From Mobula hypostoma (taxonomy: Eukaryota), in contig NC_086108.1 in assembly GCF_963921235.1 (NCBI RefSeq), positions 44,456,001-44,520,000 on the forward strand: 64,000 nucleotides of DNA. The letters run 5' to 3'. The notes below the pieces were generated by a model. That model was given only the letters and a program-made list of their open reading frames with translations. It was not told the origin of the DNA and made no database searches. Positions 860 to 62,650 of the stretch are shown here, piece after piece. The translations under genes were made by a program, and so were the position numbers. How positions within the stretch are numbered: position 1 is the first letter of the stretch; the number at the start of each line of letters is the position of its first letter.

Positions 860-980
860 TTTCTTCAGTTCTGAAAAAGGATCTTTGACCTGAACTCTTT
901 CACTTTCCATAGATGCCAACCTCTTCAGTGTTTCCTCTACTTTCTATTTTTGTTTCAGATTTCTAGCATCTGCATTTTTC
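860..980 (+). mobile_element. Old degenerate Penelope-like 3' terminus
   Basis: cagttctgaaaaaggatctttgacctgaa...tttccatagatgcc...ttctagcatctgca resembles the PLE terminal consensus seen elsewhere in the window. Confidence 0.5.
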
Positions 981-1339
981 TTTTGGCTTTGGTTCAGTAC
1001 TTTAGAGGTCAAACACGGTTGAGCAGAGACAGTTACCTCTGCAAATTACTCTTTAGTAGTCAGTTCAAAAATTAATCTCTTGTCTCATGTTTTGCAATGA
1101 ATTCCACAATCAGCTAGATGGCTTCCTGTAGGAAGAGGGCAAAATGACTAGCCATTTAATTCTGAATAAAAACACACTGCAGTTGCCAATAGACGTTTTT
1201 TGGTAATCTTTCTGTTGAGTGAAATACTTTTAGTTCAAGACCAAGGTCAGTTGTGTGTTTTGTTTTCCTGAATTTTCCCCATGTTTACTTGCTGCTGCAC
1301 TCAGCTGTGAGATGGTGGATGACATTTTCTCTGATGTCT

Positions 1340-2180
1340 ATTCCAGATAGTAGATCCTGGGGATTGGAAAGTAGTAAATATGCCCCCTTTGCTTGAGAAA
1401 GCAAGAAAGTATGGGCATTCCTCATGACTACAGATCAGTAAGGCTAGCATTAGTGATAAATTAGAAATGAGCATGGTGGTGGGGGTAGGTAATTAACAGG
1501 CATGCAGGAGAGATTTCAAAGTTCAAAGTAAATTTATTAACAAAGTACATATACCAGGACATGTTTGTGTAAAAGCAGACTGTGCTCAACTAGCCTGACA
1601 GAAGGTTGAAGTCTTTGACAGAGTTTCTCAAACAAACTCGTTAACAGAATTAGGCGTTCTGGAATAATAGAGTTAGGTATTGGCTTGGATAAAGGATTAC
1701 CTTAAGGACAGAATTCAAGTTGTGGCAACAAGTTGTTCTCCAGACAGGAGCTTGATAGACAGTGGAATTTACCAAAAGGTCATTGCTTGTTCTGTGCTTT
1801 TTTTATTGATGCATTTAAACAATTAGGATATTGGCATACAGAGTAGACCTTAAATTTATTATACCAAACTTCTCAGGGACAGTGTACTTCAAGGCTACCT
1901 GTCCACTGCAACAGGTATAGACAGGCTACTGGAATAGGCAGACAAATGAGGCAGTTGAGGTATTGCAAATGGCAGAAGGTATGTGGGCAGGCTTTATATA
2001 CTTAGTGACAAAGCTCTGAATTACGGAGGAACAAAGCAGCCTCTGGGTTCATGTGCCTAGATCTTCAACATTCAGAGTGCAGTCTATTTATTATGCTTAA
2101 CTTTTTAAAATCTCCGCTTAGGCTTTCCGTTCTGGACACCATACTTAAGAATTTAAAGATATTTTAAGAGATTTCTAACA
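1340..2180 (+). mobile_element. Highly degenerate CR1 LINE ORF2 fragments
   Basis: gattggaaagtagtaaat (DW-VAN-like), tttgacagagtttctca (FD-V-H-like), gtattggcttggataaagg (LAWI-like) and ttctggacaccatacttaag. Confidence 0.55.
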
Positions 2181-2529
2181 TTTACTCATGTTCCCAAGAA
2201 AGCACCTCGGCATTCAATACTGTCATCCCCTCAAATCTAATCTATAAGCTACAATATTTTGAGCTCAGTACCTTGTTGTGAAACTATATCCTCTACTGCC
2301 TCCTTGCAGAGAAAGTGTTATCATCTCAGAGAATCTGTCCTGGTTCAAATGTGACACAAATGCAGCGGTACAAGTTGAATGAGTTTAAGCTTCTCATTTG
2401 TGCTAATAGAGCTTGCACATACCTTTGGGGGGGGGGAGAAACAGGTTAAAGGGCTTGAAAAGAAGGGGTTAAAGCACAATACTAGGCAAAAGCCAAACTT
2501 GCTCTTTAAAGGTTGAAGATTGAAAAGCC

Positions 2530-3254
2530 ATGGAGCTCCTCGGTCCAACACACCATTATGAAGAAAGCACGGCAGTGCCTCTACTTCCTTAGAAGTTTGT
2601 GTAGCTTTGAAATGTCATCTAAAACTTTGACAAACTTTTATAATGTGTAGTGGAGACTATACTAACAGGTTGCATCGTGGCCTAGTATGGACACGCCAAT
2701 GCCCTTGAATGGAAAAGCCTACAAAAACTAGTGGATACTGTCCACTCTATTATAGGTAAAGCCCTCCCCCACCACTGAGTACATCTACACGGAGCATTGT
2801 TGTAAGATAGGAGCATCCACTATCAAAGATCCCACCAACTCAGCTATGCTCTGTTGTTGCCGTCATCAGGAGGGAGGTACAGGAGCCTTGGGATCCACAG
2901 CACCAGGCTGAGGAACAGTTATTACCCGTTAGCTATTTGGCTCTTGAACCAGAGGGGATAACTTACTTGCCGCCATCACTTAACTGTTCCCACAACCTGT
3001 GAGCTCACTTTCAAGGACTCTTCATCTTTTGTTCTCTGTTTATTGCTTATTTATTTATTATTGTTATTTTTTTCTTTATGTATTTGTGTGGTTTGCTGTC
3101 TTTTGCACATTGTTTGTCCACCCATTTGGGTGGGGTCTTTCATTGATTCCATTGTGTTTCTTGTATTTTCTGTGAATGCCTGCAGGAAAAAAATCTCAGG
3201 GCTGTATATGGTGACATATATACTTTGATAATCAATTTACCTTGAACTTTGAAC
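2530..3254 (+). mobile_element. Rex/Babar-type LINE 3' fragment (with a small RT fragment at about 2205-2310)
   Basis: KKARQCLYFLRSL, GCIVA-YG and GRRYRSL...RLRNSYYP remnants; (TTGAAC) tail. Confidence 0.8.
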
Positions 3255-3463
3255 GAGTCAGTCTGAAACAATTGGTGTTCTCTTAATGATAAAGGTTGAG
3301 ATTTGATGGAGGACTGCAAGATTAATAGGTTTAGATGGGCATGGAAGTGTCCTAAATTGAAGGTACATGGGAAAGATTTTCAGTAAGAGTTAAATGGGTG
3401 AGGATGAATAAAGTTTGTTTATGCAGAAAGTGTGCACGCACACTCACGCATTTTCACCATGTA

Positions 3464-5374
3464 CAGTACTGTGCAAATGTCTTGGGTGCATGTAAATAAA
3501 TGTGTGAAATGAAGATGCTTTCAAAAATAATGAAACTAAAAGTTTCTAATTATCAAAAAAAAACTATAAAGAGCAGTAAACAGTAAAATCTAAATCAAAT
3601 CCATAGTTGGTGTGATCACCCTTGCCTTTAAACTGCAGCAAATCTCTTGGGTACACTGTTGTGCAGTTTTGTAAGGAAATCAGCTGATGTGTTTTCCCCA
3701 TCATCTTGAAGTTGTGACAGTTCTTCTGCAGACTTTGGTTGTCTCACTTGCTTCTGTCTCTCCAGCAGCCTTGATGGTGTTGACATCAGGGCTCTGCAGA
3801 GGCCATTCCATTTGTTGCAGAATTGCTTGTTGTTCTCACTGAAGCTGGTTCTTTATGGCCTTGGTCATGTGTTTTGGGTCATTGTCCTACTGCAGATTGA
3901 AGTTGGGGACTGACCAGGCGCCTCCCTGGTGGTATTGTGTGATGCATAAGAACCTGCTTATACTTAGCATTGAGATTCTATTAATTCCAACCAAATCACT
4001 AACTCCATTTGCAGAAATGCAGCCCAAACCTGCCCAAACCACTATGCTTCACTGTTGGCTGCAGGCATTCATCCACCTAGAGCTCTCCAGCTCTTCAAAG
4101 GACAACTGCATCCTGTTTGAGCCAAAAATTTCAAATCAGACCATAGCACTTGCTGTCGTTGTTCAGCAACCCAGTCCTTGTGTTTTTGTGCGTAGGTGAG
4201 TCTCTTGGTTTTGTTTCCACTTTGGAGGAATGGCTTTTTGGTAGCATCTCTTCCACGAAGACCACTTCTGGCAAGACCTCTCCAGACTGTAGAGGGGTGT
4301 ACTTTGGTTCTAGTGGTTTCTGTGAGTTCAGAGCTGTTAGTACTGCTGGACTTCCGATTTAAAAGGGACATCAGTTTGTATCTTTCGTCTGCTGTACTCA
4401 GTGTCCATGGCCAAGCACTGCATTTCTGGTCCTCAGCCTTGCCTGATTCTTTGTGCTTCTTTAGAAGAGGACTTGAAACTCCTTTCCGCTGCAAAATTTC
4501 TGCTTGCGAGAGACCTTGCTAATGCAGGATAATCACCTTGTGTCTTGTTGCTATGCTCACTCTTGTCATGGTGCAAGAAATGACAACTTGAAGGTTAAAC
4601 TGTCACATCTGTCGCAACCTCACCTTTTAGTTTGATCCTTCTCGACCAGTTTCTGTTCAGTTAATCAGTTTAGTTCATTCAACTCATTATGTCATTGATC
4701 ATTAGCACCTGTTTGTTATCTTTGTTTAATCACACACTGGGCTATATTCCAACAAACTAACATTGATTTCTGGAACTTCTGATAATGGCACCCCCTCTCC
4801 TTCACCATTCCCATTTCCCCCCTCACTTTTATCTCCTTACCTATCCATCACCTCCCTCGGGTGTTCATCCCCCTTCCTTTCTTCCTTGGCCTTCTGTCCT
4901 CTCCTATCAGATTCCTCCATCTTTAGCCCTTTATCTCTTTCACCAATTGACTTCCCAGCTCGTTACCACCCCTCCCCCTCCCAGTTTCACCTATCACCTA
5001 TTACGTTGTACTACTTCCTCCCTTTCCCCCCCCCTCTTACTCTAACTTCTCATTTCTCTTTTTTGCCAGTCCCTGATAAAGGGGTTTGGCCCGAAATGTT
5101 GACTGTACTCTTTTCCATAGATGCTACCGGACCTGCTGAGTTTCTCCAGCATTTTGTGTGTGTTACCTGCAAAGTAATCAAGTTTTTATTTGAAAAGTAG
5201 TCTATTACTTAATGTTACTTTCTTTACTGAAGTTTCTGACGTTTAATTTTTTTGGGAAATGAATGTTTGGAAATCTAAAATCTCTTTTCTACAGACACTA
5301 AGGCAGAAAACAAAAAATATACATATAAAACAAAACTTCTACTGGGGAAAAAATATCTAAGGTGCACAGTAGTG
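3464..5374 (-). mobile_element. Tc1/mariner DNA transposon, decayed transposase on - strand
   Basis: TA|CAGTACTGTGCA at 3464 and TGCACAGTAGTG|TA at 5363-5374. ORF 4069-4494 has the Tc1 HTH/linker (VHPSTVWRGLARSGLRGR..KKPFL..KRLTYAQKHKDW..VLWSD). Confidence 0.9.
4760..5166 (+). mobile_element. Penelope-like element 3' fragment with mutated hammerhead (5067-5105), nested in the Tc1
   Basis: Starts with an ORF end (NIDF-NF-stop), then a C/T-rich tract, then CAGTCC-CTGATAA-AGGGGTTTGGCCC-GAAA-TGTT-GACTG and the conserved tail. Confidence 0.85.
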
Positions 5375-11489: not shown

Positions 11490-11625
11490 ACCCCGCTTTC
11501 CTAGTTCTGACAATGGGTGTCAGGCCCAAAGTGCAAACACATTCTCATTTAACAGAAGTTGCCCGACATCCTGAATATTTCCATTGTTTTTCTTTCTATT
11601 TTAGATTTTCAGCATTTACAGTTTT
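11490..11625 (+). mobile_element. Old degenerate Penelope-like 3' terminus
   Basis: agttctgacaatgggtgtcaggcccaaa...cagaagttgcccgacatcctgaatatt...ttttcagcatttacag. Confidence 0.5.
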
Positions 11626-12013
11626 ATTTTCATCAGACTAACGTTTGGGTTAAACTATACCTTTAGTATTGTATAGATTTGTGGATGACCTGACTGTAAT
11701 GGAAATACAGTATTCTGTTTTTGAAAACTGTGTTGAGACCCACCCCAAAGAAGCTACTGCTTATAGAGAGCTGTAGATGTATTATTCTTTGGATTATTAA
11801 TGCTGGTCTTAGAGATTTAAAGTATTTACATTTATACATAATACAAACAGTTAATTTAATTTTCAAAAGTAGGCTTAAAAAGTCAAGCACTTACTAGTAG
11901 GGGGGAGGAAATAATAAAAAGTTCGAAGTAAATTTATTATCCAAGCGCATGTACATCACCATATACAACCCTGAAATTCTTGGGAGGCATTCACAGTAAA
12001 TTTTAAGAAACAA

Positions 12014-12800
12014 CTAGAAGCCCCCCACTGGCCTTCTGCCAATCAGCCAAACTTCTATCCATTCTAGTATCTTTCCTGCAATACCATGGGCTCCTACTTT
12101 GTTTAGTAGCTTCCTATGCAGGACCTTGTCCAAGGCCTTTGGAAAATCCAAGAAAACAACATCCCCTGACTCTCCTTTTTCTATCCTACCTGTTATTTCC
12201 TCAAAGAATTCCAACAGATTTTTCCTCAAAGAATTCCAACAGATTTGTCAGGCAAGATTTCCCCTTTAGAAAACCATGCTGACTTTGGCCTATTTTATCA
12301 TGTGCCTTGGAGTATACTGAAATCTTAACGTCAGTAGTGGACTCTTACTGATGGACACTGATGTCAGTCTAACTGGGCTGAACTTTCCTGCTTTTTGCCT
12401 CCTTCCCTTCTTAAAGAGTGGGGTGCGATTTTTCCAGCCCTCTGGAACCATTCCAGAATCTAGTGATTCTTGAAAGATCATTACTAATGCTTCCAGAATT
12501 TCTTCAGCTACCTCTTTCAGAACCCTGGGGTGTAGTCCATCTGCTCCAAGCGACTTATCTAATTTCAGACCTTTCAGTTTCACAAGCACCTTCTCTTTAG
12601 TCATTGCAACATCACTCATTTCTGCCCCCTGACATTCGAATTTCTGGCATACTGCTGGTGCTTTCACAGCAAAGTACTGTTCATATTCAGTTCACTCACT
12701 ATTTATTTGTTCCCATTACGTCTCTCCGGTGTAATTTCCAATGTCCACTCTAGCCTCTTCCTCTGTACATCTCTGAAAAAAAATTCGGTATCCTCTGTTA
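12014..12800 (-). mobile_element. CR1 LINE ORF2 (RT N-terminal) fragment
   Basis: ADGLHPRVLKEVAEEILEALVMIFQESLDSGMVPEGW; NLLEFFEEIT..DVVFLDFPKALDKVLHRKLL. Confidence 0.92.
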
Positions 12801-15734
12801 GCTTATTGACTATTTTGTGTGATTCTGCATCAGAGCTTTTAAGGTAAACTGGTTTCATGAACAATCACTTGCTTTTAGAAAAGCTTTACTGTTTGGTTTA
12901 TGGATTTCTCTATCAATTAAAATTAATTTTCTATATGAATTAAATATATTTTGCGTGGAACCAGCAGTTAGAAATTGCTTTATGTTGTATTTCTGTTTTC
13001 AATGGCAATAAATGAAGAAGAAAGGGCGATGAAGAAGATGGCAATAAATGAAGAAGAAGCTGAAGAGGATGGCATCTAGCTTCACTTGTCCATTGTCAGG
13101 CAGAGAGTACAAAACAAAAAGAGGGTTTTCATTGAATTAGTAATATAAACTGAGAGAATAAACATTTGTTTTCTGAGTGTATTACGAGTCTATCATTCTT
13201 TGGCACAGCTGAAGGCTTTGATAGGTTACCATGTACAGAGAAGAACTGGCACTTAATAATTGCTTCTCCTGCTGGCGTGCCAGTCTAGTTAGCAGGTTTC
13301 TGGCTATGCAGCCAAATCAACATACTGTCGTTTGTACCCAAGTGTCAAGAGACTTGATGAGTAGAGTCCTACAGATAATTTAAGTACTCTTGCTCTAGTC
13401 TCATTTTTTTCTCATCCAAATTACAAACTACATCATTCTCGATTTGCAAAGCTGTACTTTCAGGCAACAGTAATAAATCAATTAATGGCTCCAAATCATT
13501 TAATGGGCTAACACAATAAAATGAAAGCCAACAGCTTGTGTCTCTGCAGTAATATTAGTGGCTGCTTGTTGATTGGAGTAGAGAGTTCAACAGTGCTCGT
13601 TATGTCAATTAGCACAATTAGTACATGATTTGATTGCAGGATTTACACTGCATCTGCTTGAACCCAGCTCTGTTTGCACATTCTGTGAGGCAAAAATGAC
13701 CTTACAATAAATATTGTGCAGCATTGGGCAAATGAGGAGGGGAGGGGAAAGAATTTTACAAATTGTCAAATAATGATGCATTTCCAGATTAATGCCTTTA
13801 CAAATAAGCAAATTTAAAATAAATTTTAACTGACATTTATGTTCATCAAATGCGGGGACAAAGATGGAAGTTTTCTGTATCCTTATCAGTTCATCTCTTT
13901 GCAGTGCTAAGCTACGCCATATCAGATACAATACAAGAAAAAATGAGAATTAAAGCTATGTTTGTTGTATTTTAATACTACTCCATAACAACAACCTCAA
14001 AAAAAAAAGCTCTTTCTCTGCCAATGGTTTCACTTTCAAATGCCTACTTAATCCTTTCCGTTTACAAAGTTGCTAATTTCAAGACTAATTAGTGGATATT
14101 GTGTGTAATTGACTCATGCTTAGGGTTGAAACCACCCCAACTCCTTGGAGTAAAGTCTTCAGTAGATCAGTTTTGATGGCTTTGATCCCTACCCCATTGG
14201 AAAAAACAGATTGGAAGCATACAACCCTTCATCGTTAGGATATTTGCACCGTCATATTTGGAGGCACTTCATTGGTCGGTTGATCATGGATGTTGCTGTT
14301 TGTGATATGCTTGCCAGTATGCAAGCCATGGCAGTTCGATGTGGAGAGCAAGCTGTTGCAACAAGTCATATTCCATTTTGTAATAACATTTGTATGTTGC
14401 ACGGAAACTCATGAAGTGCAAAATATATATTTTTTCTGGTACCTATCTTGCGCTGCCAGTATATTATAGGGCTCCTTCAAGGGCATAATGGTAATAAGTG
14501 AGCAATACTTGTTTCTTGTACATAATAATTTTTCACTGAGGAAAAATGGGACAGCAATGCCAATAGCTTATTTAATGCGAGAGGCTGAAGAAATGAGATT
14601 AAATTTATGTGAAATACAGGGTCAAGAAATTCAGTGTTCAGAATCCCTATCATTCTGGTCAAGATGGCATCGAGCTGCGCTCTACGTCGAGGTTGTGGCT
14701 CAGAATTAGGTATTTTAAGTTTGTAGGGAATGTTTTGGGGGCAGAGAGGGGAGTTAGAGGTTAGGTTAGCGTTCAGGGACAGGGATGTGGAGGAGTTAGA
14801 CAGAGTCTAGGCCTCTGCCCTGTGCTCCGCATGTGAAGGCCAGTGATGTGGGCGAGTGTTGAGGGACATTTGGAGTCTAGGCCTCTAAGGCCAGCAACCT
14901 GGACGAAGGTGGTCAGTGGATGTGGGGATGGAAAGCGCTGTGATGAAGACTAATGAGGATGACTAGGTCAGCTAGTCCCCCAGGTCAGTAGGTCCTGGGA
15001 TCGAATGTACGTGCGATCAAGGGGCATGAGAGCTGGTGACTCCCCCTAGATATACAGGTTGGTAAGTCCAGAGTTCGAAGCCTGGAGTTCAGTATTCTGT
15101 TATTGACTGAGGTTGATACTAAAGATCAAAGCCCGATTGCCGAAACCCTGAAGTCCACTGGGAAAATCAGATGCCCATTGTCTATGCGCTGATTGGAGGA
15201 CTGTCCAATGTGGGTGGGATGGAGGAAAGGAGCGAGTTTTGCTGCTGTTTTTTTTTGCTTGTCATGCTTTGTGTTGTGCTGAGCATTGTGGGTATGTTGT
15301 GTTGGCCCCAGAATGTGTAGCGACACTTGCTGCCTCAGCACAAATGACTCATTTTACTGTCGTTTTAGATGTACGTGTGATAAATGAACAAATCTGAATC
15401 ATTCCCTTGTTTTATTGATTTGCATCATTTTGCATTATGCTATAAAAAGATTTTGAGAAATATTCACCATTTCATACAATACATATGAATTTAAAGATTC
15501 TGTGTAGAAGTTGTCGCTTTACTATGGCCTAGTCTAAAGTCATTGCATGCATTTTGTGCTACACTCTCCTGATACAGCCTTCAACTCTGTTTCTTTAAGT
15601 TCAAGTGGTGCAGATGTCTGGATTAGGCAAACATCTGTTTTGGTTGTTTGCAATTAGATCTGACTTTACCATGTACAGCACAACCGTGCCCTGCTTTTGT
15701 CTGCCACAACAGCTAGTTATTCCAGACAAGGTGA

Positions 15735-15832
15735 TCTCTGATGCAGGGTTTTGACCTGAAATGTAAACAATTTATTTCCTCTCACAGATGCTGCATGACC
15801 CACTGAGTTACTCCAGCAGTTTGTTTGTTGCT
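15735..15832 (+). mobile_element. Degenerate Penelope-like 3' terminus
   Basis: CTGATGC-AGGGTTTTGACCT-GAAA-TGTA...cagatgctgcatgacccactgagttactccagca. Confidence 0.65.
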
Positions 15833-15889
15833 AATTATTCCATATGTGTGCCATCACTAAGATTGGTTATTTACACTTGAAAAACATAG

Positions 15890-17405: not shown

Positions 17406-17540
17406 ACAAGAGAAAATCTGCAGATGCTGGAAATGCAGGCAACACACACAAAATGATGGAGGAACTCAGCAGGCCAGGCAGCGTCAGTGGAAAGGAGTAC
17501 AGATGATGGTTCGGCCCGAAACTCTTCGGCAGGACTGAAC
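17406..17540 (-). mobile_element. Short Penelope-like 3' terminus with 11-bp flanking duplication
   Basis: CACCTTCCTAA at 17395-17405 and 17551-17561; degenerate hammerhead at about 17500-17537. Confidence 0.85.
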
Positions 17541-18422
17541 TGAGTAATTTCACCTTCCTAAGAAGTAAATTTCATATGATGTTTTTATGTTTATCTCAAA
17601 GAAGATTAGGAATGGGAATTGTATATATAAGTTTGTCACTTACAAATCCAATAGAGAATTTTTGAGACTGTTTACCCAAAGTTGTCAAACACTACAAGCT
17701 GAGGTCACTGCACACCATCGATGTAATTTGGTGGAAGTAAGTTAAATACGCAAAGAAGCAAGGAATGAAGGGGTGTGTTGAGTGACTTATCCCAACACTT
17801 GTACTATGGGCAATGTTCTGTTTACTAAATGCAATGTCCTAGAGTCTATAGTCAGCTCATGTTTGTTACTAATCTCAAAACTAAGTCTGTTCTTGCTTAG
17901 AATCTTTGACAGTAGGAACTTAGAGTTGTAAGCCAGCCAAGTCCTCAGTGACAAGATTCTGTATGTTGCAACATAATACCGTATTGGGTGGGGGCAGATC
18001 AAGCCAATCCAGCAGACCCAGCTGGCTAAACCATGGCTCCCAAGTTTAGCTGGAGCTATGACATGGGCTTAATATGTGAATGTCTCAGCTGTTCAGAGAC
18101 ATTGGATAAATAATACTTAAAGATACTTGAATACTTTAAAATGAAAATGTTAAAGAAAATGCAGTTATAGATGCTTGCTTATTTTAATTCCTGTGGATTT
18201 CCTATTTAGTATAAGGGTATTCTCACACCCCCTGCTGTGCTTCCATACTTAACTGCACCAATCCATTTGGATTGTTTCAGGGATTCACAAATTAAAATCC
18301 TTGTGTGAACATCTTGTGTTTTCCAGAGTTACAATGGAAAACAGCATTTATGTGGTTAAGTGTTATGTACAAAACCTAGCCCTCTGTAATAGTATGTAAC
18401 ACCATAATCTATTAAGTCCAGA

Positions 18423-19851: not shown

Positions 19852-21131
19852 AATATTCAGCATTTGTGTCATATCAGCATTAGATCACTGGGAAGGAAGG
19901 TTCAGAAGAGAGTTATGCACGTGCTTTCTAACTAGAGGAAGGTTTGAAAACAAAAAATATAAATATTTCTAAATATTTCAGGTTTTATGTATCTTTTGGC
20001 TCATCATAAGTGTGCTCCATATTCTTTTGAGGTAACAAAATGTGGGAGACAACAGCATTAATTTTGCTCAGTTAGTGATTGGAATACTAATTATTTTTCT
20101 GGTGCCTGCTGTAAATCCAGGGAGTATTTTAAATTACTATCTGGTGATGCCTTCTGGAACCTAGTTTTGCATATTAGTTAGGGACTATAATCTGTTGTCT
20201 TGACAAAACATTTTGTGGAGTAGTTTGATTTGCAACATTTGATTCACGAGTATTAGCTATAATACTGTTGTCTACTTGCAACTATTTTTCACTGGAGAGA
20301 ACAGCCTGCCACACTTGGTGTATGGGAGTACATTGTACCAAGATTTGCATCCAGCATTTTCGATTTATATAATTTCACATAATGAAACTCTTTCCTTCTG
20401 AAATGGCTGTATTGGCCAACCGCAAAGCGTATATCATCTGGTCGTTGATCAGGATGTGAAGCTCCTAGGAGAAAAGAGAAATTTGGCAAATAATGCCAAT
20501 TCTAAGTGAGGTTGTGTGGAGTATTGGGGCTCAATGAATTGAATTCATTGTTGATGAGAAATGATTTTCTGCTGTGGCGAGAGTGCTGTTTAAGCGAAGT
20601 GTGGACATCTCATCCTGATACTGTTAAAGCAGAGCAATGCTCCTGCTTTCCTTAAGGGGTCAGTTTCAGCTTTCACAACCAATTTACACGCCAGATGTTT
20701 ATCGGTTTAAAGGCAAAACAACTGCATGGTTCTACTAAATTGGTAATGAATATGGTAAGCTGCGTTGCCTCTGTTCTTTGACACATGTGAACTGTTAAAC
20801 GGGCAGATGTTCGGGGATCACCAGCAAAAACATTTGCTTGCAGTGAATTGACCATAGAAATGTCTAATGTAGTCTAATCCAAAGATGCGTTTTGTGAGTC
20901 TGATTTGCACATAATGTTTTTTGTGAAGATGTGGTTCCTTTGGTGCAATCTGAACTTTGAGTTCTGGTGAGAGTGAGAGCATTCTTGCCTATTCATCCCT
21001 CACTGTGCTTTCAATTATGTCTACTCATTTATCAAAGAAACATTGCTCTAAAGTTTGTTGTTGTTTACATTCGATGCAGAATCTGCACTGACAGTTTATG
21101 CAGCATCTAAATAGGTTCTGTATATTACTCA

Positions 21132-21260
21132 GTCACAAGAGACTGCAGATGGTGGAATCAGAGCTGAAAATGAGCTGCTTGGAGGATTTCAGTGGACCAG
21201 GCAGCAACTGTGGAGGGAAATGGACAATTGATGTTCAGGGTTGAGACCTTCATCTGTGAT
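21132..21260 (-). mobile_element. Degenerate Penelope-like 3' terminus
   Basis: gactgcagatggtggaatc...gaccaggcagcaactgtggagggaaatggacaattgatgttcagggttgagaccttcatc. Confidence 0.65.
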
Positions 21261-21269
21261 CCTGTAGGC

Positions 21270-27200: not shown

Positions 27201-28350
27201 GTGATGAAACACCAATTCCTGCCTGAGAAGCGACTTGGATCCACTCCAATTTGCCTACCAGAGCAACAGATCCACAGCAGATGCCATCTCATTAGCTCTT
27301 CTCTCAACCCTGGAACAGCTGGACAGCAGAGATGCATATATCATGATGTTCTTTATTGATTACAGCTCAACATTCAATACCATCATTCATTCCAGACTAA
27401 TTAGTAAGTTCCAAGACCTTGGCCTCAATACTTGTGCAATTGGATCCTGGATTTCCTCTCTTGTAGACCTCAATCAGTTTGGATTGCCAACAACATCTCC
27501 AACATTTCCTCCACAATCTCCATCAGCACAGGTGTACCACAGGCTGTGTACTTAGCCACATGCTCTACTGGTTTTACACTTAATGACTGTGTGGCTAAGC
27601 ACAGCTCCAATGCCGTATTCAAGTTTGCTGACAACACCGCTGTCGGAGGTGGAGAGGGTCAGCAACTTTAAATTCCTCAGTAAATCAATCACAAACAAGA
27701 GAATATCTGCAGATTCTGGAAATCAAGCAACACACAAAATGCTGGAGGAACTCAGCAGGCCAGGCAGCATCTATGGAAAAGAGCACAGTCAATGTTTTGG
27801 GCCGAGACCTTTCATCAGGACAGTGCCTCTACTTCCTTAGGAGTTTGTGGAGATTCAGGGACATCTAAAACTTCGGCAAACTTATATAGATGTGTAGTGG
27901 AGAGTAATATTGACCACATCACAATCTGGTATGGAAACACCAAAGCTTTTGAACAGAAATTCCTACAAATAGCAGGTACGGCCCAGTCCATCACGGGTAA
28001 AGCTCTCCCAACCATTGAGCACATCTGCTTGAAATGCTGTCACAGGAAAGAGCATCCATCGTCAGGGTCCTGAACCAAAGGGGATAACTTCACTCAACCC
28101 CATCATCGAAATGTTTCACATCCAATAGACTTGCTTTCAAGGACTCTTCATCTCATGCTCTCTATTGCTTACTTGTTTATTATTTTTTTCTTTTTGTATT
28201 TGCGCAGTTTGTTGTCTTCTGCACTGTTATTAACTGCTGAAGTTGCATGATCTTTCATTGATTAAGTTATGGTTATTCTATAGATTTAGAGTATGCCCAC
28301 AAGAAAATGAATCTCGGGGTTGTATTTGGTGATTGTATATGTACTTTGAT
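27200..28350 (+). mobile_element. Rex/Babar LINE fragment, internally deleted, interrupted by a PLE terminus
   Basis: DPLQFAYQSNRSTADAI..FIDYSSTFNTII; KFADNT; 3' end tttatctcgaacttt. Confidence 0.88.
27690..27822 (-). mobile_element. Short Penelope-like 3' terminus with hammerhead remnant
   Basis: - strand GTC-CTGATGA-AAGGTCTCGGCCC-AAAA-CATT-GACTG followed by the conserved tail. Confidence 0.88.
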
Positions 28351-30663: not shown

Positions 30664-30789
30664 TGAGGGTTTCAGCCTGAAACATCGACTGTACTCTTTT
30701 CCTAGATGCTGCCTGGCCTGCTGAGTTCCTCCAGCATTTTGTGTGTGTAGATGGGATTTCCAGCATCTGCAGATTTTCTCCTGTTTGTG
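30664..30789 (+). mobile_element. Short Penelope-like 3' terminus (starts in hammerhead stem II)
   Basis: gagggtttcagcctgaaacatcgactgtactc...tgctgagttcctccagca...ttccagcatctgcagattttctcctgtttgt. Confidence 0.88.
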
Positions 30790-30856
30790 TCTGGGTTTGA
30801 TGTTTTTGGTGGCAGTACGCTACTCTAACTGCTATTCAAACAAATGTTGAAATGAA

Positions 30857-31398
30857 AACAACAGGAATACTGCAGATGCTGGAAATTCGTGCAACACACA
30901 TCAAAGTTGCTGGTGAACAGAGTAGGCCAGGCAGCATCTCTAGGAAGAGGTACAGTCGACGTTTCAGGCCGAGACCCTTGTCAGGACTAACTGAAGGAAG
31001 AGTTAGTAAGAGATTTGAAAGTGGGAGGGGGAGGGGGAGATCCAAAATGATAGGAGAAGACAGGAGGGGGAGGGATGGAGCCAAGAGCTGGACAGGTGAT
31101 TGGCAAAGGGGATATGAGAGGATTATGGACAGAAGGCCCGGGGAGAAAGACAAGGGGGGGGGGAAACCCAGAGGATGGGCAAGGGGTATAGTCTGAGGGA
31201 CAGAGGGAGAAGAAGGAGAGTGAGAGAAAGAATGTGTGTATAAAAATAAATAACAGATGGGGTATGAGGGGGAGGTGGGGCATTAGTGGAAGTTAGAGAA
31301 GTCGATGTTCATGCCATCAGGTTGGAGGCTACTCAGATGGAATATAAGGTGTTGTTCCTCCAACCTGAGTGTGGCTTCATCTTTACAGTAGAGGGGGC
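30857..31398 (-). mobile_element. Penelope-like element 3' end: GIY-YIG C-terminus, pLTR and hammerhead remnant; 14-bp TSD
   Basis: - strand translates LYCKDEATLRLEEQHLIFHLSSLQPDGMNIDFSNFH*, the typical GIY-YIG end. AATGTTGAAATGAA at 30843-30856 and 31399-31412. Confidence 0.92.
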
Positions 31399-33035: not shown

Positions 33036-33968
33036 TTAGCACGATGCTTTACAGTACCAGCAACCCGGGTTCGATTTCCTTTGCAGGGAAAAGAAAATCT
33101 GCAGATGCTGGAAATCCAAGCAACACACTCAAAATGCTGGAGGAACTCAGCAGGCCAGGCAGCATCTATGGAAAAGAGTACAGTTGATATTTTGGGCCGA
33201 GACTCTCCATCAGGACTGGAGAAGAAAAGGTGGGGGGTCAGATTTAGAAGGTGGGGGAGAGGGGAGAAATAAACACAAAGTGATAAGTGAAACCAGGAGG
33301 GGGAAGAGGTGAAGTAAAGGGCTGGGAAGTTGATTGCTATATCTGCGCTCCATCTGCCAGAACAAGCGGGATCTCCCAGTGGCCACCCATTTCAGTTCCA
33401 CTTCCCATTCCCATTCCAACATGTCAGTCGATGGCCTCCTCTACCGTCGTCAGGAGGCCACACTCAGGGCAGAGGTGCAACACCTTGTATTCTGTCCTTT
33501 TCTCTTCGTGGCCTGTATCTCTTTCACCAGCTTCCTAGCTCTTTACTTCACCCTTCACCTCTCTCTCCCCCCCTCCCCCCTTCCCGGTTTCACCTACCAC
33601 CTTGTGTTTCTCCATCCCCTCTCTCCACCTTCTAACTCTGACTTCTCATCTTTTCTTCTCCAATCCTGATAAAGGGTCTCAGCCCAAAACGTCGACTGTG
33701 CTCTTTTCCATAGATGCTGCCTGGCCTGCTGAGTTCCTTCAGCATTTTGTATGTGTTGCTTGGGTTCAATTCCTGCTGCTGACTATAAGGAGTCTGTACG
33801 TTCTCCTATGTCCATGTGGGTTTCCTCTGGGTGCTCCGGTTTCCTTCCACAGTCCAAAGATGTACTGCTCAGTAGATTAATGGGTCATTGTAAATTAACC
33901 TGTGATTAGGCAAGGATTAAATCGGGGGATCAAATGGCCAGAAGGGCCGTACCGTATCTCAATAAATA
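33036..33968 (+). mobile_element. tRNA-derived V-SINE-like element split by a PLE (parts about 33036-33080 and 33762-33968)
   Basis: B box GGGTTCGATTTCC; V-domain tgggtttcctctgggtgctccggtttccttccacagtccaaaga; tail gtatctcaataaata. Confidence 0.82.
33085..33763 (+). mobile_element. Penelope-like element with inverted 5' pLTR (33085-33335, -) and GIY-YIG end plus pLTR (33340-33763, +)
   Basis: LRSICQNKRDLPVATHFSSTSHSHSNMSVDGLLYRRQEATLRAEVQHLVF; hammerhead remnants at about 33181-33218 (-) and 33661-33698 (+). Confidence 0.9.
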
Positions 33969-37867: not shown

Positions 37868-38220
37868 GAGAAATTCTGGAAATCCCGAGCCACACACAAA
37901 ATGCTGGAGGAACTCAGCAGGCCAGGGAGCGTCTATGGAAAAGAGTACAGTCGATGTTTTGGGCCGAGACCCTTCTTCGGGACTGGAAAGGACGGGGGGT
38001 GGGGGAGACACCAGAATAAAAAGGTGGGGAGAGGGGACGGAGAATAGCCAAAAAGTGATAGGTGGAACCAGGGGGGTGGGCAATGTTAAGAAGTGCTGGA
38101 GGGGGAAAAAAAATCTGAGGACAATGGACCATGGGAGAGAGAGAAAGAGGAGGGGGCCCAGGGAGAAGTGATAGGCAGGTGAGGAGAGGTAAAAGGCCAG
38201 AGTGGGGGATAGAGGAAGAC
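37868..38220 (-). mobile_element. Penelope-like pLTR fragment with hammerhead remnant
   Basis: - strand CAGTC-CCGAAGA-AGGGTCTCGGCCC-AAAA-CATC-GACTG. Confidence 0.88.
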
Positions 38221-39230
38221 TTGTTACTCTTATATTTTGCAATTTATACCTTTTACGCCCTTGCACTGTAGTGTTGCCATGAAACACCTAATTTCATATC
38301 ATATGTCAATGATAATGATTCTGGTCATGAAACACATGATGCTACATCTCATTTTTACTTCTGTTGGAGTGTGGCAGGGAAATCCATTCAAGAATGGCAA
38401 AACTTTCTTGCTCTCTACAAACAATACACTTCTTCCCCCTCCCCTCTCCCCCCCCCCTCCAACCTTGGCCTCTGTCCTTGCCAACCCAGAAAAGAATACT
38501 GGTTTGTGTACAAGGTTGAGGGTGATGGCAAATCTCGTTTGTGCGTAAGCCATGTAATAAAGTGTTGTACAAGTTTTACACTGGTCAGATGTTCTGCTCA
38601 GAATCAGTGATTTGTTAGGGTGAATGGGGAAAAAGGAAGATGAAAAGTAATGACGTGAGCTTTTGCAAATATTTTTTTCTCATTGTGTGTACAGAACAAC
38701 GTTGACTGTTGGAGTTGCAATTGCACAAAACATTGAATCTCTGGACAGCTGTTTTAGTAGCTGTCAGGTTATGAGACTTACGATGCTGAGATGTCTCTAA
38801 GCAGCCTAATTTGACAGGAATAAATCTGTCACAGTCCAAATTTGCTGGGTATGTGGTTAAAAGCAGGACCATTAGATTTGGTTAGAATTCAAGAGGGAAG
38901 AAATTGGGAAGTGTAAGTTTCAAACGTGCCAAGGGTTTTGGGAAAAAGATCTCTCGTTTAACAGCATCTGGGTGTGTGAGGAAAGCATCCAGTTTTTTTT
39001 ATAGGTGAAAGGACTGTGACACAGTGTGCAATGGATCAGTGGATGTTGAGTTTCCAGAACAATGTGAAAAGGAACTGTGGTAATTAGGCACAGATTGCTC
39101 TTTGTAAATGAATCTCTTGCTCTGGTAGTGAGTGAACTGTTCCCACCGAGTTTAACCTTTTGCCACAAGGGGTTCAGGGAAGTATGTCATTGTGACAGAG
39201 GTTTGAATCTGAATGTTTTATTTCTTGCAG

Positions 39231-41845: not shown

Positions 41846-41932
41846 GTGGCCTTGCAATATTACCACCTGGTTTCATTTTTGAAAGTCATTGTGGCTGAAG
41901 TTTGGTCAAGTAGCTGAATTAAAGAAAAACAA

Positions 41933-42110
41933 AAGAAACTGCAGATGCTGGAAATCTAAAATAAGAACAGAAAATGTTGGAAATACTGAACAGACCAAGC
42001 AGCATCTGTTGAAAGAGAAACCAGTTTACTTTTAAAGTTCAACCCTGAAATGTTAACTCTGTTTATTTTCCTACAGATGCAGGCTAATCTTGAGTATTGC
42101 CAGCTTTTTA
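41933..42110. mobile_element. Inverted pair of old Penelope-like termini joined at the hammerhead region
   Basis: - copy ctgcagatgctggaaatct..agcagcatctgttgaaagagaaaccagttt then + copy cctgaaatgttaactctgttt..cagatgc..tgagtattgccagc. Confidence 0.7.
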
Positions 42111-43750
42111 TTTGATTATAATTGACTTAATAGATGAGTCTTGGGGACTGACGTGCTTGAGATAGGGTAATTCCAGAAAGGATCCTTTTGCTGTTGCTTA
42201 TTTGCAGCAGTTGATGTTCCTGAGTTCTGAATTGGAGTAGGGAGGAGAAAAATCAGATAAATATTGTGGTATGTCTTTGAGAGCCATTGGAAATTGGCAC
42301 ATTTTGATGGTAGATTGTGAGATTGGGCAGAGGCCCTGGGCATTTTGCAGTTGTACTGCCGTACCACTGGCCAACTTTTGAGGCACTCTGTGAAAGTTCC
42401 TTTTCTGGTAGGCTTATTACAGACTGTAAGTGCCCTATCAACAAAATTCTTCTGTGCAGCAGCATCCCTAGAATCATGGAACCATTTGCTGGCCTTAAAG
42501 AGTCGATCAGCCCCACACGGATTTCATGAGAGTAGTGCATTCCTCTTTGAAAGTTGCAATTAAACTTGCGTCACCAACGTGTTAAACAGTCCAAGTCAGC
42601 TTTCATTTTTTTTTATAAAAAGGAGCAATCATTCCCAAGGATTTTTCTAATTATCTTAAGTCAGTGACCTTTGATTTTTGTTTTGCTTGCAGTTCGAAAT
42701 GTCTGTTTCCTGTACCAGTGTTTTGAATTTTGAAAACCAGTTTAATCTTTGCTTTAATGAGAACGCAGTTTTTTGGGCCTTATTTTGGTCAATTTTTTTT
42801 TGTATTTACTTTCTCAAGACATTGTTCATGAATGAAGTAAGGAGGGAAAAATGAACTGATTTGTATTCTTAATTGTACCACCCTATTTAGATAACATTTG
42901 TTAAAAAATCGGTTTCTTTTAACTTTAAAATATTAATTGGGTAATCTTTTGAACAGCTTTTAGCTGTATTCTTTTTATCATGGCCCAATGATGGTCAAAG
43001 TAATGTTGCTTGTTGTGATGAGCATCGTGAATGAATCTCAGGAGAGGATTTTATAACAAACATGCTGTCAACTCACCAGAGAGCAAGTTTAATAGGGCCA
43101 CATAATGGAAAAGGGAAAATGACATTCATCACAAAGCCAGCAGGCAGATGTGTTAATTATGCAAGCATAGGAAATATGTAAATTGCTATTAATCTCACTC
43201 GGGGTCAAAAATTCCACTAGTCCCAGACTGGGACCATCGGAAATTATTCTTCAAAGTCTGAGCTAATGGATTTGAAACCAGAGACAACATAATGCATCCT
43301 GCAGTGTTCATGTGAGATTTAAAACTTTGTACTATATCATGGATGGCATTATTGCTGTTCAAGGGTGTTTGCTCTTCAAAACTCGATAAAGCATTTTGAG
43401 AATCCAAAAAAAACCCCAATAAATATGAAAATAAATTCTATATTTTGCATTGTATAAACTGGCCCAGATCCCTTGTTTAGGATTGCTACAGCAAATGGCA
43501 TGGCAACAGTTTAGTAAATTTAAACAGAATAATTTTTGGAAGGTATTAAATATTTAATAGTCTCAAAAATTGCAGCCAGATGCAAATTAGCAAATGTGAA
43601 CTGGGTTGGTTTATTTTTGAATTTATGCTTCAGCATTAAATAAAACTTCAGCGCAGTCTTGAATGATGTAGGGGAGTCTCATGCAATCTCTACCTTTAAC
43701 CACTTAAGTGTGCCTGCATCTTGCAGTGAAGGAAAATACCTGCCTTCCTA

Positions 43751-44085
43751 AGCAACACAAACAAAATGCTGGATGAACTCAGCAGGTCAGGCTAAATCTA
43801 TGGAAATGAGTAAACAGTCAATGTTTCGGGCCGAAACCCTTCTTCAAGACTGGAAGGGAAAGGGGAAGGCACCAGAATAAAAAGATGGGGAAGGGGAAAG
43901 AGGACCAGCTAGAAAGTGATAGGTGAAGCCAGTTGGGTAGGAGAGGAAGGAATCTGATAGGAGAGGAGAGTGGACCAAAGGAGAAAGGGAAGGGGGGGCT
44001 GGGGGAAGTGGTAGGCAGGTGAGAAGAGGTAAGAGGCCAGAGTAGGGAATGGAAGAAGAGGGGAGGGGGAGGATTTCTTTATTGG
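43751..44085 (-). mobile_element. Penelope-like pLTR fragment with hammerhead remnant
   Basis: - strand CAGTC-TTGAAGA-AGGGTTTCGGCCC-GAAA-CATT-GACTG; imperfect flanking duplication aaggaaaatacctgccttccta / aaggagaaactgcattccta. Confidence 0.87.
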
Positions 44086-44354
44086 AAGGAGAAACTGCAT
44101 TCCTACTCAGACTTGGGATGCCTTTCTGAAAATTGTTCCCAGGGACAATACGAGGCAAAAGGAGGGATCATAGATGGCTTTAAGAGAATTCTTTTTTTTT
44201 TGTGAATGCAGTCTCAATGAGTTACTGCATGGTAAACAAAAAGTGTACAACAAAGAATGCAATTTTAGGTTCTCTCCTTGGAAAGTGCTGATCTCATACC
44301 AGTGTACAGCTTTGGCACTGGTAGCATTTTGGTAAGTCGCATATGAGTCTAGAT

Positions 44355-47453: not shown

Positions 47454-47583
47454 GGGTCTCGGCCTGAAACGTCAACTGCACCTCTTCCTAGAGATGCTGC
47501 CTGGCCTGCTGCGTTCACCAGCAACTTTTATGTGTGTTGCCTGAATTTCCAGCATCTGCAGAATTCCTGTTGTTTGCGTTTTT
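47454..47583 (+). mobile_element. Short Penelope-like 3' terminus with perfect 13-bp TSD, nested in BEL
   Basis: ATCATGCCCACTA at 47441-47453 and 47584-47596; starts GGGTCTCGGCCTGAAACGTCAACTG. Confidence 0.92.
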
Positions 47584-60754: not shown

Positions 60755-60919
60755 GTAAGCAGAACAGAAACTGCATTCTTTCAGTTTCTACCCTTGAACA
60801 TGGGAATCGTGTTTTAGCAGAATCTGTAATTTTCATTGTCCACCAGTTGTTAGCAAGCCCTGGCATGTCTGATTGGCTTCCTTATGAAGAGATTTGTACT
60901 TTATTCATTCAAGTATTCG

Positions 60920-61078
60920 CCTTCTGGTTTCCTCCCACAGTCCAAAGACATACTGGGTAGGTTAATTGGTCATTCTAAATTGTCCCGCGGTTAGGTTAGG
61001 GTTAAACCGGTTGTCAGGTGTGGCTGGGTGGTGCTGTTCGAAGGACCCGTTCTGTGCTGTATCTCAAAATAAATAAAT
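60920..61078 (+). mobile_element. V-SINE-like 3' fragment
   Basis: ctggtttcctcccacagtccaaagacatac..ttaattggtcattctaaattgtccc..gtatctcaaaataaataaa. Confidence 0.75.
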
Positions 61079-61866
61079 TTAGGTTGTGCAGATCAATTGA
61101 AAATGAGCCCTTGTTTTTAATTAAGTGGAGGTAGTATTTGGAATTCTCCAATGGCTACTGAGTAAGTGTATCAAATGTGCCATAAGTTATCCTTTCTGAA
61201 TTTGGATACACAGTACCTCTGATCTAGAAAGAGAAGAAACATCTGCCGGAGGAAAAGTTCCTCCCAGGCCTGGTTTGTTGGTTGTTTAAACTGGTAAATG
61301 AGAAGGTTGTGGTTTCAAACACAATCCTAAATGTTTAAGCATTGGCGCAGTGTTTTCAGCATATCATTCATACAGTGCAGCAGTGTTGGTATGTAGTTTA
61401 TAGTATCGTGCTAAACTACAGAATTTGAAGGTAGGAATTTCAGCATAGGCATCTTCAGCATTGACTCTCAATATTGGACAACTTTTCCTGATACCCATTT
61501 ATTTTTGATCAAATGTTTAAGGGCGTTTCTTCTATCTAGTGAGGAAAAGATGGGAGTATGTTGGGGTAGTAGTGAATTCAAGTGCGTGCTGGGGCTAAAG
61601 TGTTGCTGCTGATGTCCAATTGAATTTGGGTAGGTGCCATGTGGTGAAAGCAATTGTCTCCATTGGACTGCAGGACCCATTTGGGCTTTAAATTTTTAAA
61701 AAAACTTTAACTGGGACTGAGAATTAGCTTGATGATGTCAGTTGAATTTGGTTTTGGTATTGGGAATGTGCATATTAACAAATTAACTTTGTTTTTTTTT
61801 TCCCTTCCCTGCCCTTCACTGGTTTCCTTCTCGTTATGGTAGTCTGATCCTTGGTTATCGTTGCAG

Positions 61867-61931
61867 AACTATGGCGGTTCAATGAGACCTCCACCCAATT
61901 CAATAGGTCCAGGCATGGCTGGAATGAACAT
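61867..61931 (+). CDS. SSBP3: SSBP3 coding exon (65 nt, phase 0/2), NYGGSMRPPPNSIGPGMAGMN(M); alternative acceptor at 61843 adds SDPWLSLQ
   Basis: Acceptor ttgcag and donor AT/gtaagt. Matches NYGSGMRPPPNSLGPAMPGINM. Confidence 0.94.
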
Positions 61932-62271
61932 GTAAGTCTCTTGCATACAGATAAATCTATATGCTACTAAAACTCTCATGCTCTGTCTGTCTGTTTGTGA
62001 CCTCGAGTCAGCGCAAACGCTGTATTACAGCAGCACTTTTTTTTGGCTACATTGAATTCAAGTGCGCTAACTTACAGAATGCAGGCAAAGTTCAGGGTTA
62101 TATATTCATATAAAATTGCTCATTTGCCAAAAATCAACAGGTTGGCTTTCACCCGAGACCCGACCGGCCATCATGGAAGTCGGGACACGACAGCCCAACG
62201 CATGCGCACGGCCAGCCCCAGCAACGACACCTACCGGAGCAAAAGGGCAGGGCAGCTCTATTTCGAGGGCA

Positions 62272-62650
62272 CAAAATAATCTGCAGATGCTGGGGTCAAA
62301 GCAACACGCACAACACGCTGGAGGATCTCAGCAGGTCGGGCAGCACCTGTGGAAACGAACAGTCGACGTTTCAGGCCGGAACCCTTCATCAGGACTGAAG
62401 AAGGAGGGGGCAGAGGCCCTATAAAGGAGGTGGGGGGAGGGTGGGAAGGAGAAGGCTAGAAATGTTCCAGGTGAAAAACCAGTAAGGGGAAAGATAAAGG
62501 GGTGGGGGGAGAGGATAGGCAGGAAAGGTGAAGAAGGAATAGGGGAAAGCATAATGGGTAGTAGAAAGAGGCAGAACCATGAGGGAGGTGATAGGCAGCT
62601 GGAGGAGGGGGCAGAGTGAAACTGGAATGGGGAAGGGAGGGAGAGGGATT
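62272..62650 (-). mobile_element. Penelope-like pLTR fragment with intact hammerhead core
   Basis: Same terminal consensus as the other copies, with CpGs retained. Confidence 0.9.
62360..62397 (-). ncRNA. Minimal type I hammerhead ribozyme motif
   Basis: - strand CAGUC-CUGAUGA-AGGGUUCCGGCCU-GAAA-CG-UC-GACUG: stem I CAGUC/GACUG, complete core, short stem II, palindromic ACGU in place of stem III, GUC cleavage triplet. Confidence 0.85.

What the first reader, a model, noticed from the sequence alone, without database searches (positions are those of the whole stretch)
860..62650. About 15 dispersed hammerhead-bearing PLE termini behaving like a SINE/retrozyme-like family
Seen: related termini at about 860, 5067, 11490, 15735, 17406, 21132, 27690, 30664, 30857, 33085, 33661, 37868, 41933, 43751, 47454 and 62272, on both strands and of widely differing divergence. 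Two are attached to GIY-YIG C-terminal coding sequence (31285-31398 and 33340-33492), which identifies the parent as an endonuclease-bearing Penelope-like element. Inference: about one hammerhead-derived motif per 4 kb would imply a very large genomic ribozyme population and several waves of activity. This repeat is easily mislabelled as a SINE.
Basis: partly seen in the sequence, partly recalled or inferred. Interest (0 to 1): 0.7.

Follow-up and report, generated by a model that had tools for sequence, protein, structure and literature searches.

The report
Decayed Penelope-element tails with hammerheads
The repeats are the cut-down, mostly decayed tail ends of a very abundant Penelope-like jumping gene of a ray, and they carry the small hammerhead ribozyme motif already known from such elements, so the kind is ordinary although the density is high.

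Summary
All 16 listed termini are real, plus a 17th: one per 3.8 kb, 15 insertions. They are 5'-truncated 3' ends of a Neptune-type Penelope-like element (PLE), laid out as endonuclease C-terminus, pyrimidine-rich UTR, minimal type I hammerhead, about 95-nt tail. The attached coding pieces match a stingray protein with RT, CX4CXXC linker and GIY-YIG (79% over 34 aa). Target-site duplications, head-to-head inverted pairs and an optional tail end fit known PLE insertions. It is not a retrozyme (no tandem arrays) or a SINE (no Pol III boxes). Only 1 of 17 cores is intact; non-CpG core positions decay like the tail (8.1% vs 9.3%), so these are relics, not a ribozyme population. Related public runs show very high abundance and a lineage-specific subfamily wave. 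One detail of interest: 9 of 17 5' ends lie within 39 nt of the hammerhead start (P 0.005-0.02), possibly run-off at the RNA's 5' end; the depth data do not confirm it. The scan has reported this family many times in this genome, and the end clustering in other genomes. Known kind (Cervera and De la Pena 2014).

The parts
856..985 (+). old PLE terminus (61% to majority), degenerate hammerhead and long tail; weak UTR homology further upstream
4759..5170 (+). PLE 3' end: last endonuclease codons (weak), pyrimidine-rich UTR, hammerhead with 2 core changes, short tail
11490..11629 (+). old short PLE terminus (57%), possible 12-bp TSD with 1 mismatch (low complexity)
15725..15829 (+). old short terminus starting about 12 nt before the core; 13-bp TSD with 1 mismatch (15712-15724 / 15830-15842)
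17406..17550 (-). short terminus, exact 11-bp TSD (17395-17405 / 17551-17561), 3 core changes
21130..21266 (-). old short terminus (61%), no TSD found
27690..27822 (-). short terminus beginning at helix I, inserted in a LINE remnant; core CpG decay; no TSD found
30664..30789 (+). short terminus lacking C3-U4; left junction shared with organisms B and C
   Evidence: (table 8, records 9 and 17)
30857..31398 (-). 5'-truncated PLE of a second subfamily: endonuclease C-terminus (31286-31398), UTR, hammerhead with G8 lost, long tail; exact 14-bp TSD at 30843-30856 / 31399-31412
33085..33335 (-). inverted 5'-truncated partner (long tail) of a head-to-head pair
33336..33761 (+). PLE 3' end with endonuclease coding piece 33340-33492, internal deletion, UTR, hammerhead (G8 and G12 changed), short tail; the pair is flanked by an imperfect duplication (33067-33084 / 33762-33776) in the B-box of a tRNA-type SINE
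37870..38222 (-). PLE 3' end with UTR, 3 core changes
41928..42114 (.). old head-to-head pair joined in helix II (41928-42045 minus, long tail; 42036-42114 plus, short tail); no CUGAUGA box left
43751..44094 (-). PLE 3' end with UTR reaching about the stop codon; 11-bp TSD with 1 mismatch
47454..47583 (+). short copy of the 30857 subfamily starting at helix II; exact 13-bp TSD (47441-47453 / 47584-47596)
62268..62650 (-). PLE 3' end with UTR and the only intact core
62360..62397 (-). intact minimal type I hammerhead: 5-bp helix I, CUGAUGA, bulged A, 4-5-bp helix II, GAAA, loop-less palindromic helix III (ACGU), predicted cut after GUC (between 62365 and 62364)

Best explanation
The repeats are dead-on-arrival retrocopies of several subfamilies of a very high-copy Neptune-type Penelope-like retrotransposon in a ray-like cartilaginous fish (host inferred from the closest protein relatives). 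Inferred mechanism, by analogy with studied PLEs: the RT/GIY-YIG protein nicks target DNA and starts cDNA synthesis inside its RNA at one of two sites about 35-40 nt apart, some 60 and 95 nt downstream of the hammerhead. This gives the short and long tail ends. Synthesis stops early or switches to make a head-to-head inverted partner, and repair leaves 11-14-bp target duplications. The pseudo-LTR hammerhead is a passenger of the loop-less, dimer-dependent kind. It is copied uncut and then decays neutrally, first at its CpGs. Shown here: layout, homology, duplications, decay, abundance. Inferred: priming sites, enzymology and any cleavage. The excess of 110-145-bp inserts most likely arises when RT starts in the upstream pseudo-LTR and runs off the RNA's 5' end near helix I; that step is the least certain.
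For: Coding pieces: a two-sequence profile found 168 proteins at E<=0.001. The best named ones are from stingrays, skates, an electric ray and whale shark (10 looked up). P0004 (Hypanus sabinus XP_059820754.1) has RT YIDD, linker CKWNKCYTC and VVY..YIG. It aligns to 31126-31402 through the endonuclease end (79% over 34 aa) and on into the UTR (44% over 61 positions), E 7e-18. P0029 independently links the endonuclease end to the UTR type of copies 43751 and 37868, down to the hammerhead. 56 long homologues of P0004; 49 of the 49 with a YIG motif carry CX2-5CxxC; RVT_1 and GIY-YIG hits in 3 of 3 scanned. Architecture: exact TSDs at 3 of 15 insertions, imperfect ones at 4 more. Two head-to-head pairs have the long tail at one end only, as in Craig et al. 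2021 Fig. 2. Two tail ends recall the two RT start sites of anole PAc. Hammerhead anatomy matches min-HHR. Decay in 8 main-type copies: core non-CpG 6/74, tail non-CpG 63/680 (Fisher P=1.0), core CpG 11/24. Endonuclease-coding depth is about a quarter of tail-core depth in 3 of 3 large runs, like 3 of 17 copies here.
Against: No RT, no GIY-YIG motif and no full-length copy lies in the window, and no genome is held, so the master element was not seen. The window fragments have no Pfam hit and the first word-based search found nothing. Pfam scores of the full-length relatives straddle the cut-offs. Neptune placement rests on the linker, not on an RT tree. 8 of 15 insertions show no TSD. In nearest-neighbour folding the catalytic dimer (-16.1 kcal/mol) is less stable than two misfolded monomers (-23.0) or the best dimer (-28.1). 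For the 30857 subfamily, contig depth just upstream of the hammerhead (7.0-8.5 million) is not lower than on it (5.4 million), which does not support run-off at the hammerhead genome-wide.
Confidence: 0.88

Rival explanations
1. The short (about 110-145 bp) copies are a separate non-autonomous SINE-like family, born from the pseudo-LTR and moved in trans by the PLE protein.
For: 9 of 17 5' ends fall between about -21 and +17 relative to C3. No tail-only copy of 50-100 nt exists, although planted ones are detected (7 of 11 at 50 nt, 11 of 11 at 80 nt or more). Simulated P 0.005-0.02 under exponential truncation. Several short copies have their own TSDs.
Against: The 5' ends spread over 39 nt and recur in different subfamilies and age classes: 47454 groups with the long copy 30857 at 100/100 support. 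No A or B box in 17 of 17 units, no tRNA gene. The 5' ends were partly set by eye, and for old copies the UTR may have decayed beyond recognition.
Confidence: 0.08
2. A non-LTR retrozyme: hammerhead-processed, circularising tandem units that re-insert as monomers.
For: Type I hammerhead and PLE ancestry fit the proposed origin of retrozymes (bioRxiv 10.64898/2026.07.22.740005), and dispersed monomers are described there.
Against: No tandem array of the unit (6 rows, periods 18-36, none at a copy) and no head-to-tail pair among 17 copies. The motif is the minimal, not the canonical, type. No copy starts at the cut site. 3 of 17 carry coding sequence.
Confidence: 0.03
3. The hammerheads are a working, selected population of genomic ribozymes that cut host transcripts.
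For: One of 17 cores is intact. Many contigs of a run guessed to be RNA lie on the unit (23,122), so intact copies could meet in trans.
Against: 16 of 17 are broken or truncated; non-CpG core decay equals tail decay. The intact monomer folds with its core paired away. Min-HHRs cut weakly even as dimers, and PAc uses uncut RNA for insertion.
Confidence: 0.04

Closest known systems
Minimal type I hammerheads (min-HHR) in pseudo-LTRs of metazoan PLEs (Cervera and De la Pena 2014, PMC4209133; parts 1-2 of 4 of the text read, one supplementary table searched, one not searchable)
   Same: CUGAnGA and GAAA boxes, short helix I (5 bp), one unpaired base before helix II, loop-less palindromic helix III, mostly single dispersed motifs from truncated PLEs, some close pairs on opposite strands; reported in fish Xena, Poseidon and Neptune elements, with about 4,000 in coelacanth and 9,000 in Xenopus.
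   Different: Helix II is 4-5 bp here against 7-8 bp in Schistosoma. Relic density (one per 3.8 kb) is far above what those counts of intact motifs imply. No cartilaginous fish appeared in the parts read or in the searchable supplement.
Neptune clade of EN+ Penelope-like elements (as described in Craig et al. 2021, PMC8557442; passages read)
   Same: C-terminal GIY-YIG endonuclease, CX2-5CxxC linker in the close relative, hammerhead near the 3' end, heavy 5' truncation, inverted 5'-truncated partner, 30-40-bp tail at one end only.
   Different: No full-length or tandem copy in the window; clade not tested by tree; TSDs of 11-14 bp in non-microsatellite DNA, whereas a microsatellite bias is mentioned for Neptune.
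Poseidon PAc of Anolis carolinensis (Frangieh et al. 2024, PMC11167929; parts 1-2 of 4 read)
   Same: Hammerhead followed by about 60-95 nt and two alternative 3' ends; inserted copies hold the uncut hammerhead.
   Different: Different clade (PAc is Poseidon); whether the ORF starts in helix II here is unknown; PAc biochemistry is not shown for this family.
Non-LTR retrozymes (Cervera and De la Pena 2020, PMC7229834, passages; Li et al. bioRxiv 10.64898/2026.07.22.740005, parts 1-3 of 5 read)
   Same: Type I hammerhead, short non-coding dispersed units, PLE connection.
   Different: Retrozymes are head-to-tail repeats, typically with canonical hammerheads, expressed as circles; here there are no arrays, the motif is minimal and some copies run into coding sequence.

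Membership tests
EN+ Penelope-like element (Neptune type) | C-terminal GIY-YIG endonuclease | tested here: met
   Window pieces align to the C-terminal part of GIY-YIG domains of P0003, P0004, P0149; the motif itself is outside the window
EN+ Penelope-like element (Neptune type) | PLE-type RT in the same ORF | tested here: inconclusive
   Present in the stingray relative P0004 and in long homologues; not present in the window; no genome held
EN+ Penelope-like element (Neptune type) | CX2-5CxxC linker between RT and EN | tested here: met
   In P0004 and P0003 and 49 of 49 long homologues with a YIG motif; shown on relatives, not on window DNA
EN+ Penelope-like element (Neptune type) | Pseudo-LTR with hammerhead downstream of the ORF | tested here: met
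   Copies 30857 and 33661 carry EN, UTR and hammerhead on one strand
EN+ Penelope-like element (Neptune type) | 5' truncation, inverted partner, optional 30-40-bp tail | tested here: met
   Two head-to-head pairs with the long tail at one end; two 3' end classes
EN+ Penelope-like element (Neptune type) | RT phylogeny within Neptune (against Nematis) | not tested
Minimal type I hammerhead | CUGAnGA and GAAA boxes, UH site, helices I and II | tested here: met
   Copy 62272 only, 1 of 17; its 10.1-11.1 pair is G-U, while the majority sequence has G-C
Minimal type I hammerhead | Loop-less palindromic helix III | tested here: met
   ACGU at 15.1-16.1
Minimal type I hammerhead | Self-cleavage as a dimer | not testable with these tools
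   Folding energies do not favour the catalytic dimer, but the model omits core contacts
Non-LTR retrozyme | Head-to-tail repeats with a hammerhead in each unit | tested here: not met
   no array and no direct tandem among 17 copies in this window
Non-LTR retrozyme | Abundant circular RNA | not testable with these tools
   Only contigs were available
SINE | Internal Pol III promoter or tRNA-derived head | tested here: not met
   No A or B box pattern in 17 of 17 aligned units (patterns recalled); ARAGORN 0
SINE | One discrete 5' end and own lineage | tested here: not met
   Ends spread over 39 nt in 9 copies, 8 copies are longer, and short and long copies share a subfamily

The most novel reading that the evidence does not exclude
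About half of the inserts form a discrete class of 110-145-bp 'leader' retrocopies. They arise when the PLE RT starts internally in the upstream pseudo-LTR and runs off the RNA's 5' end (transcription start, or the polypyrimidine-CAG splice acceptor that coincides with helix I). A PLE would then mass-produce SINE-like hammerhead inserts with no SINE master, and ray genomes would hold 10^5-10^6 records of where the PLE transcript begins and whether it was cut.
Probability: 0.4. Interest if true: 0.45.

Novelty: new member of a known kind. Interest (0 to 1): 0.2.

Why it matters
For annotation: this unit should be filed as a PLE 3' end, not as a SINE or unknown repeat. Its pieces are spliced into ray gene models (for example ATP synthase c, RecQ5 and neuromedin-U receptor isoforms). 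For mechanism: a family this abundant lets one map PLE priming sites, 5' ends and any hammerhead cutting from genomic copies alone; the role of the PLE hammerhead is still open. It does not amount to a large population of working ribozymes: 1 of 17 cores is intact, which would extrapolate to the same order as counts already published for amphibians.

Tried and rejected
Rfam at gathering thresholds: 0 hits. No genome is held, so no direct copy count or master element. Word-based protein search with 33340-33492: 12 candidates, none at E<=10; Pfam on both window fragments: none. A 25-nt tail pattern in metagenome and viral contigs: 0 and 0. No RNA holder is on record; run X9 is only guessed to be RNA. 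Its depth relative to X1 is lower over the pyrimidine-rich UTR (0.02-0.05 in the bins 30994-31303) than over parts of the tail (0.14-0.20) and the endonuclease piece (0.09-0.12). That would fit a spliced-out intron, but the tool states that contig depth cannot rank parts of a gene and no matching joint is among those listed (1005 hidden), so I do not count it. Cleavage-product origin of short copies rejected: 0 of 17 start at the cut site, and that site is not among the loose ends shown (3139 hidden). The loose-end piles at 30703-30706 are alignment breaks of other subfamilies, not truncations. The tree of 17 short rows resolves only one branch firmly. Lunse et al. (RNA Biol, PMC5785218) is not held; I saw it only as cited in a review. 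Literature searches for a description of this family in sharks or rays and for non-autonomous pLTR derivatives listed no such paper; Repbase and Dfam could not be searched, and the bioRxiv supplements, which include one chondrichthyan, could not be seen. The bacterial promoter scan was uninformative.
Full report
Observation. A profile from 8 of the listed copies found all 16 listed termini and a 17th at 42033-42109(+). The 8 listed copies outside the seed set scored E 2e-7 to 2.5e-33, and the reversed window gave nothing better than E 4.4. A profile of all 17 adds none at E<=1. That is one copy per 3.8 kb, 8 on + and 9 on -, from 15 insertions. Rfam finds nothing at gathering thresholds.

Anatomy. 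In element sense the longest copies read: end of an ORF, 250-300 nt of pyrimidine-rich UTR, a hammerhead motif, then a tail. The tail ends either about 60 nt after the motif (5067, 15735, 33661, 43751, 42040) or about 95 nt after it (11 copies); 37868 is intermediate. The one intact motif (62360-62397, minus) has a 5-bp helix I, CUGAUGA, one bulged A, a 4-5-bp helix II, GAAA, and ACGU in place of helix III, with the predicted cut after GUC. This is the loop-less minimal hammerhead of Cervera and De la Pena 2014, thought to need a dimer. The descriptor gave 1 hit in the window and 1 hit in all of 50 shuffles.

Parent element. The two coding pieces have no Pfam hit and a word-based search failed, but a full HMMER scan with their alignment found 168 proteins at E<=0.001. 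The 10 looked up are from stingrays, skates, an electric ray and whale shark, from which I infer a ray-like host. P0004 (Hypanus sabinus) holds the RT YIDD motif, a CX4CXXC linker and the VVY..YIG motif. It aligns with copy 30857 through the endonuclease end (79% over 34 aa) and into the UTR (E 7e-18). P0029 links the endonuclease end to the UTR type of copies 43751 and 37868. Searching with P0004 among longer proteins gave 56 homologues of 734-958 aa. 49 have a YIG motif and all 49 carry the CX2-5CxxC linker; 3 of 3 scanned hit RVT_1 and GIY-YIG near the cut-offs. The linker marks Neptune and Nematis, and a vertebrate survey found only Neptune and Poseidon outside coral, hence Neptune-type. 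No tree was built, and no RT or full-length copy lies in the window.

Insertion signature. Exact target duplications flank 30857 (14 bp), 47454 (13 bp) and 17406 (11 bp). One-mismatch ones flank 15735, 43751 and 11490, and an imperfect one flanks the 33085-33761 pair; 8 of 15 insertions show none. One-mismatch matches of this size also occur by chance, so they count only where they sit on both junctions. The 33085/33661 and 41933/42040 pairs are joined 5' to 5' with the long tail at one end only, the arrangement drawn for PLEs in Craig et al. 2021. The two tail ends parallel the two internal RT start sites shown for anole PAc; that mechanism is inferred here, not shown.

State of the ribozymes. 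One of 17 cores is intact, 4 lack C3/U4 by truncation, and 12 carry 1-5 substitutions. In 8 main-type copies (9 of 17 left out as old, of another subfamily or out of register), non-CpG core positions differ at 6 of 74 and tail positions at 63 of 680 (Fisher P=1.0), while core CpG positions differ at 11 of 24. This is neutral, methylation-type decay; the sample is small. The intact monomer folds with its core paired away (-11.5 kcal/mol), and the catalytic dimer (-16.1) is less stable than two such monomers (-23.0) in a model that omits core contacts.

Abundance and waves. No genome is held. Laying contigs of four public runs on 30560-31480 placed 298,177 (X1, organism A, possibly the source sample), 198,078 (X5, organism B), 23,122 (X9, guessed RNA) and 127,296 (X10, organism C) contigs. 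In X1, flank depth is about 20 and the tail-core bin sums to 18.1 million. The tool warns that this is no copy number. My arithmetic gives 9x10^5 as a ceiling and about 3x10^4 as a floor if contig overlap inflates it 31-fold, so the window is not an unusual cluster. The endonuclease bin is 0.23-0.26 of the two tail-core bins together in X1, X5 and X10, in line with 3 of 17 copies here reaching coding sequence. Identities to the majority fall in three tiers: 87-95% (8 copies), 79-82% (3; 30857 and 47454 form a firm clade) and 57-69% (6). The tail end specific to the 30857 subfamily is about 50-100-fold rarer in organism C after scaling by flank depth (3,367 against 783,055 raw). The same depth, 4.47, on both flanks suggests an empty site there, though the joint is not among those listed. 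The 30664 junction is shared by A, B and C. Several waves are therefore supported.

SINE or retrozyme? There are no arrays or direct tandems, no Pol III boxes in the 17 units, no tRNA genes, and no copy starts at the cut site. Neither label holds. What remains is that 9 of 17 5' ends lie between about -21 and +17 of C3, and no 50-100-nt tail-only copy exists although planted ones are found (7 of 11 at 50 nt, 11 of 11 from 80 nt). The simulated P is 0.005-0.02, with ends partly set by eye. The short class spans subfamilies and ages, which points to a property of the mechanism and not to one SINE master. I noted run-off at the RNA's 5' end after priming in the upstream pseudo-LTR as a candidate before seeing two earlier notes that say the same for other genomes. 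A polypyrimidine-CAG acceptor also coincides with helix I, as described for Drosophila virilis Penelope. Against it, depth just upstream of the hammerhead is not lower than on it for the 30857 subfamily, though that low-complexity stretch may attract unrelated contigs.

Verdict. It is a new, very abundant member of a kind described in 2014; the SINE/retrozyme and ribozyme-population framing overstates it. Four searches listed no paper on this family in rays, but Repbase, Dfam, subscription journals and the bioRxiv supplements were out of reach. The scan has 41 notes fitting these words in this genome, 8 of them shown, all to the same effect. Interest 0.2.

Noticed in passing
window 33030-33925: Nested insertions: the inverted PLE pair sits in the B-box region of a tRNA-type SINE (related piece at 60923-61010, 78%), which itself interrupts an LTR-retrotransposon integrase remnant (rve_3 E 1.5e-5 at 33979-34287). 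The SINE label is recalled.
   Followed up: partly
window 18408-19367, related pieces at 8999-10132 and 27191-27637: A 319-aa open RT frame of a LINE (RVT_1 E 3.8e-29, ALKBH8_N E 2.6e-17) with several decayed relatives.
   Followed up: partly
window 4069-4518 (minus): Tc1-type transposase remnant (HTH_Tnp_Tc3_2 E 2.2e-12) next to PLE copy 5067.
   Followed up: partly
window 62905-63213 (plus): Open frame with 23-aa repeats, weak STPR hit (E 0.035); such repeats occur in Helitron-like proteins (recalled).
   Followed up: partly
window 46471-49115: Open-frame remnants that look like a BEL/Pao-type retrotransposon (recalled); no Pfam hit for the two frames scanned.
   Followed up: partly
window 44355-44421: 67-bp element with terminal inverted repeats, MITE-like (hAT-like ends, recalled).
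   Followed up: no
proteins P0002, P0005, P0026, P0030, P0164: Ray and skate gene models (ATP synthase c, neuromedin-U receptor, RecQ5, NYAP1-like) contain this PLE's endonuclease end or the antisense hammerhead-tail as exons: exonised repeats or annotation artefacts.
   Followed up: no
window 33205-33235 (minus) and the same place in other long copies: A polypyrimidine tract ending in CAG, a textbook 3' splice site, coincides with the 5' strand of helix I in most long copies.
   Followed up: partly
window 12112-12580 and 63535-63988: Two copies (65%, opposite strands) of another LINE-type RT region.
   Followed up: no
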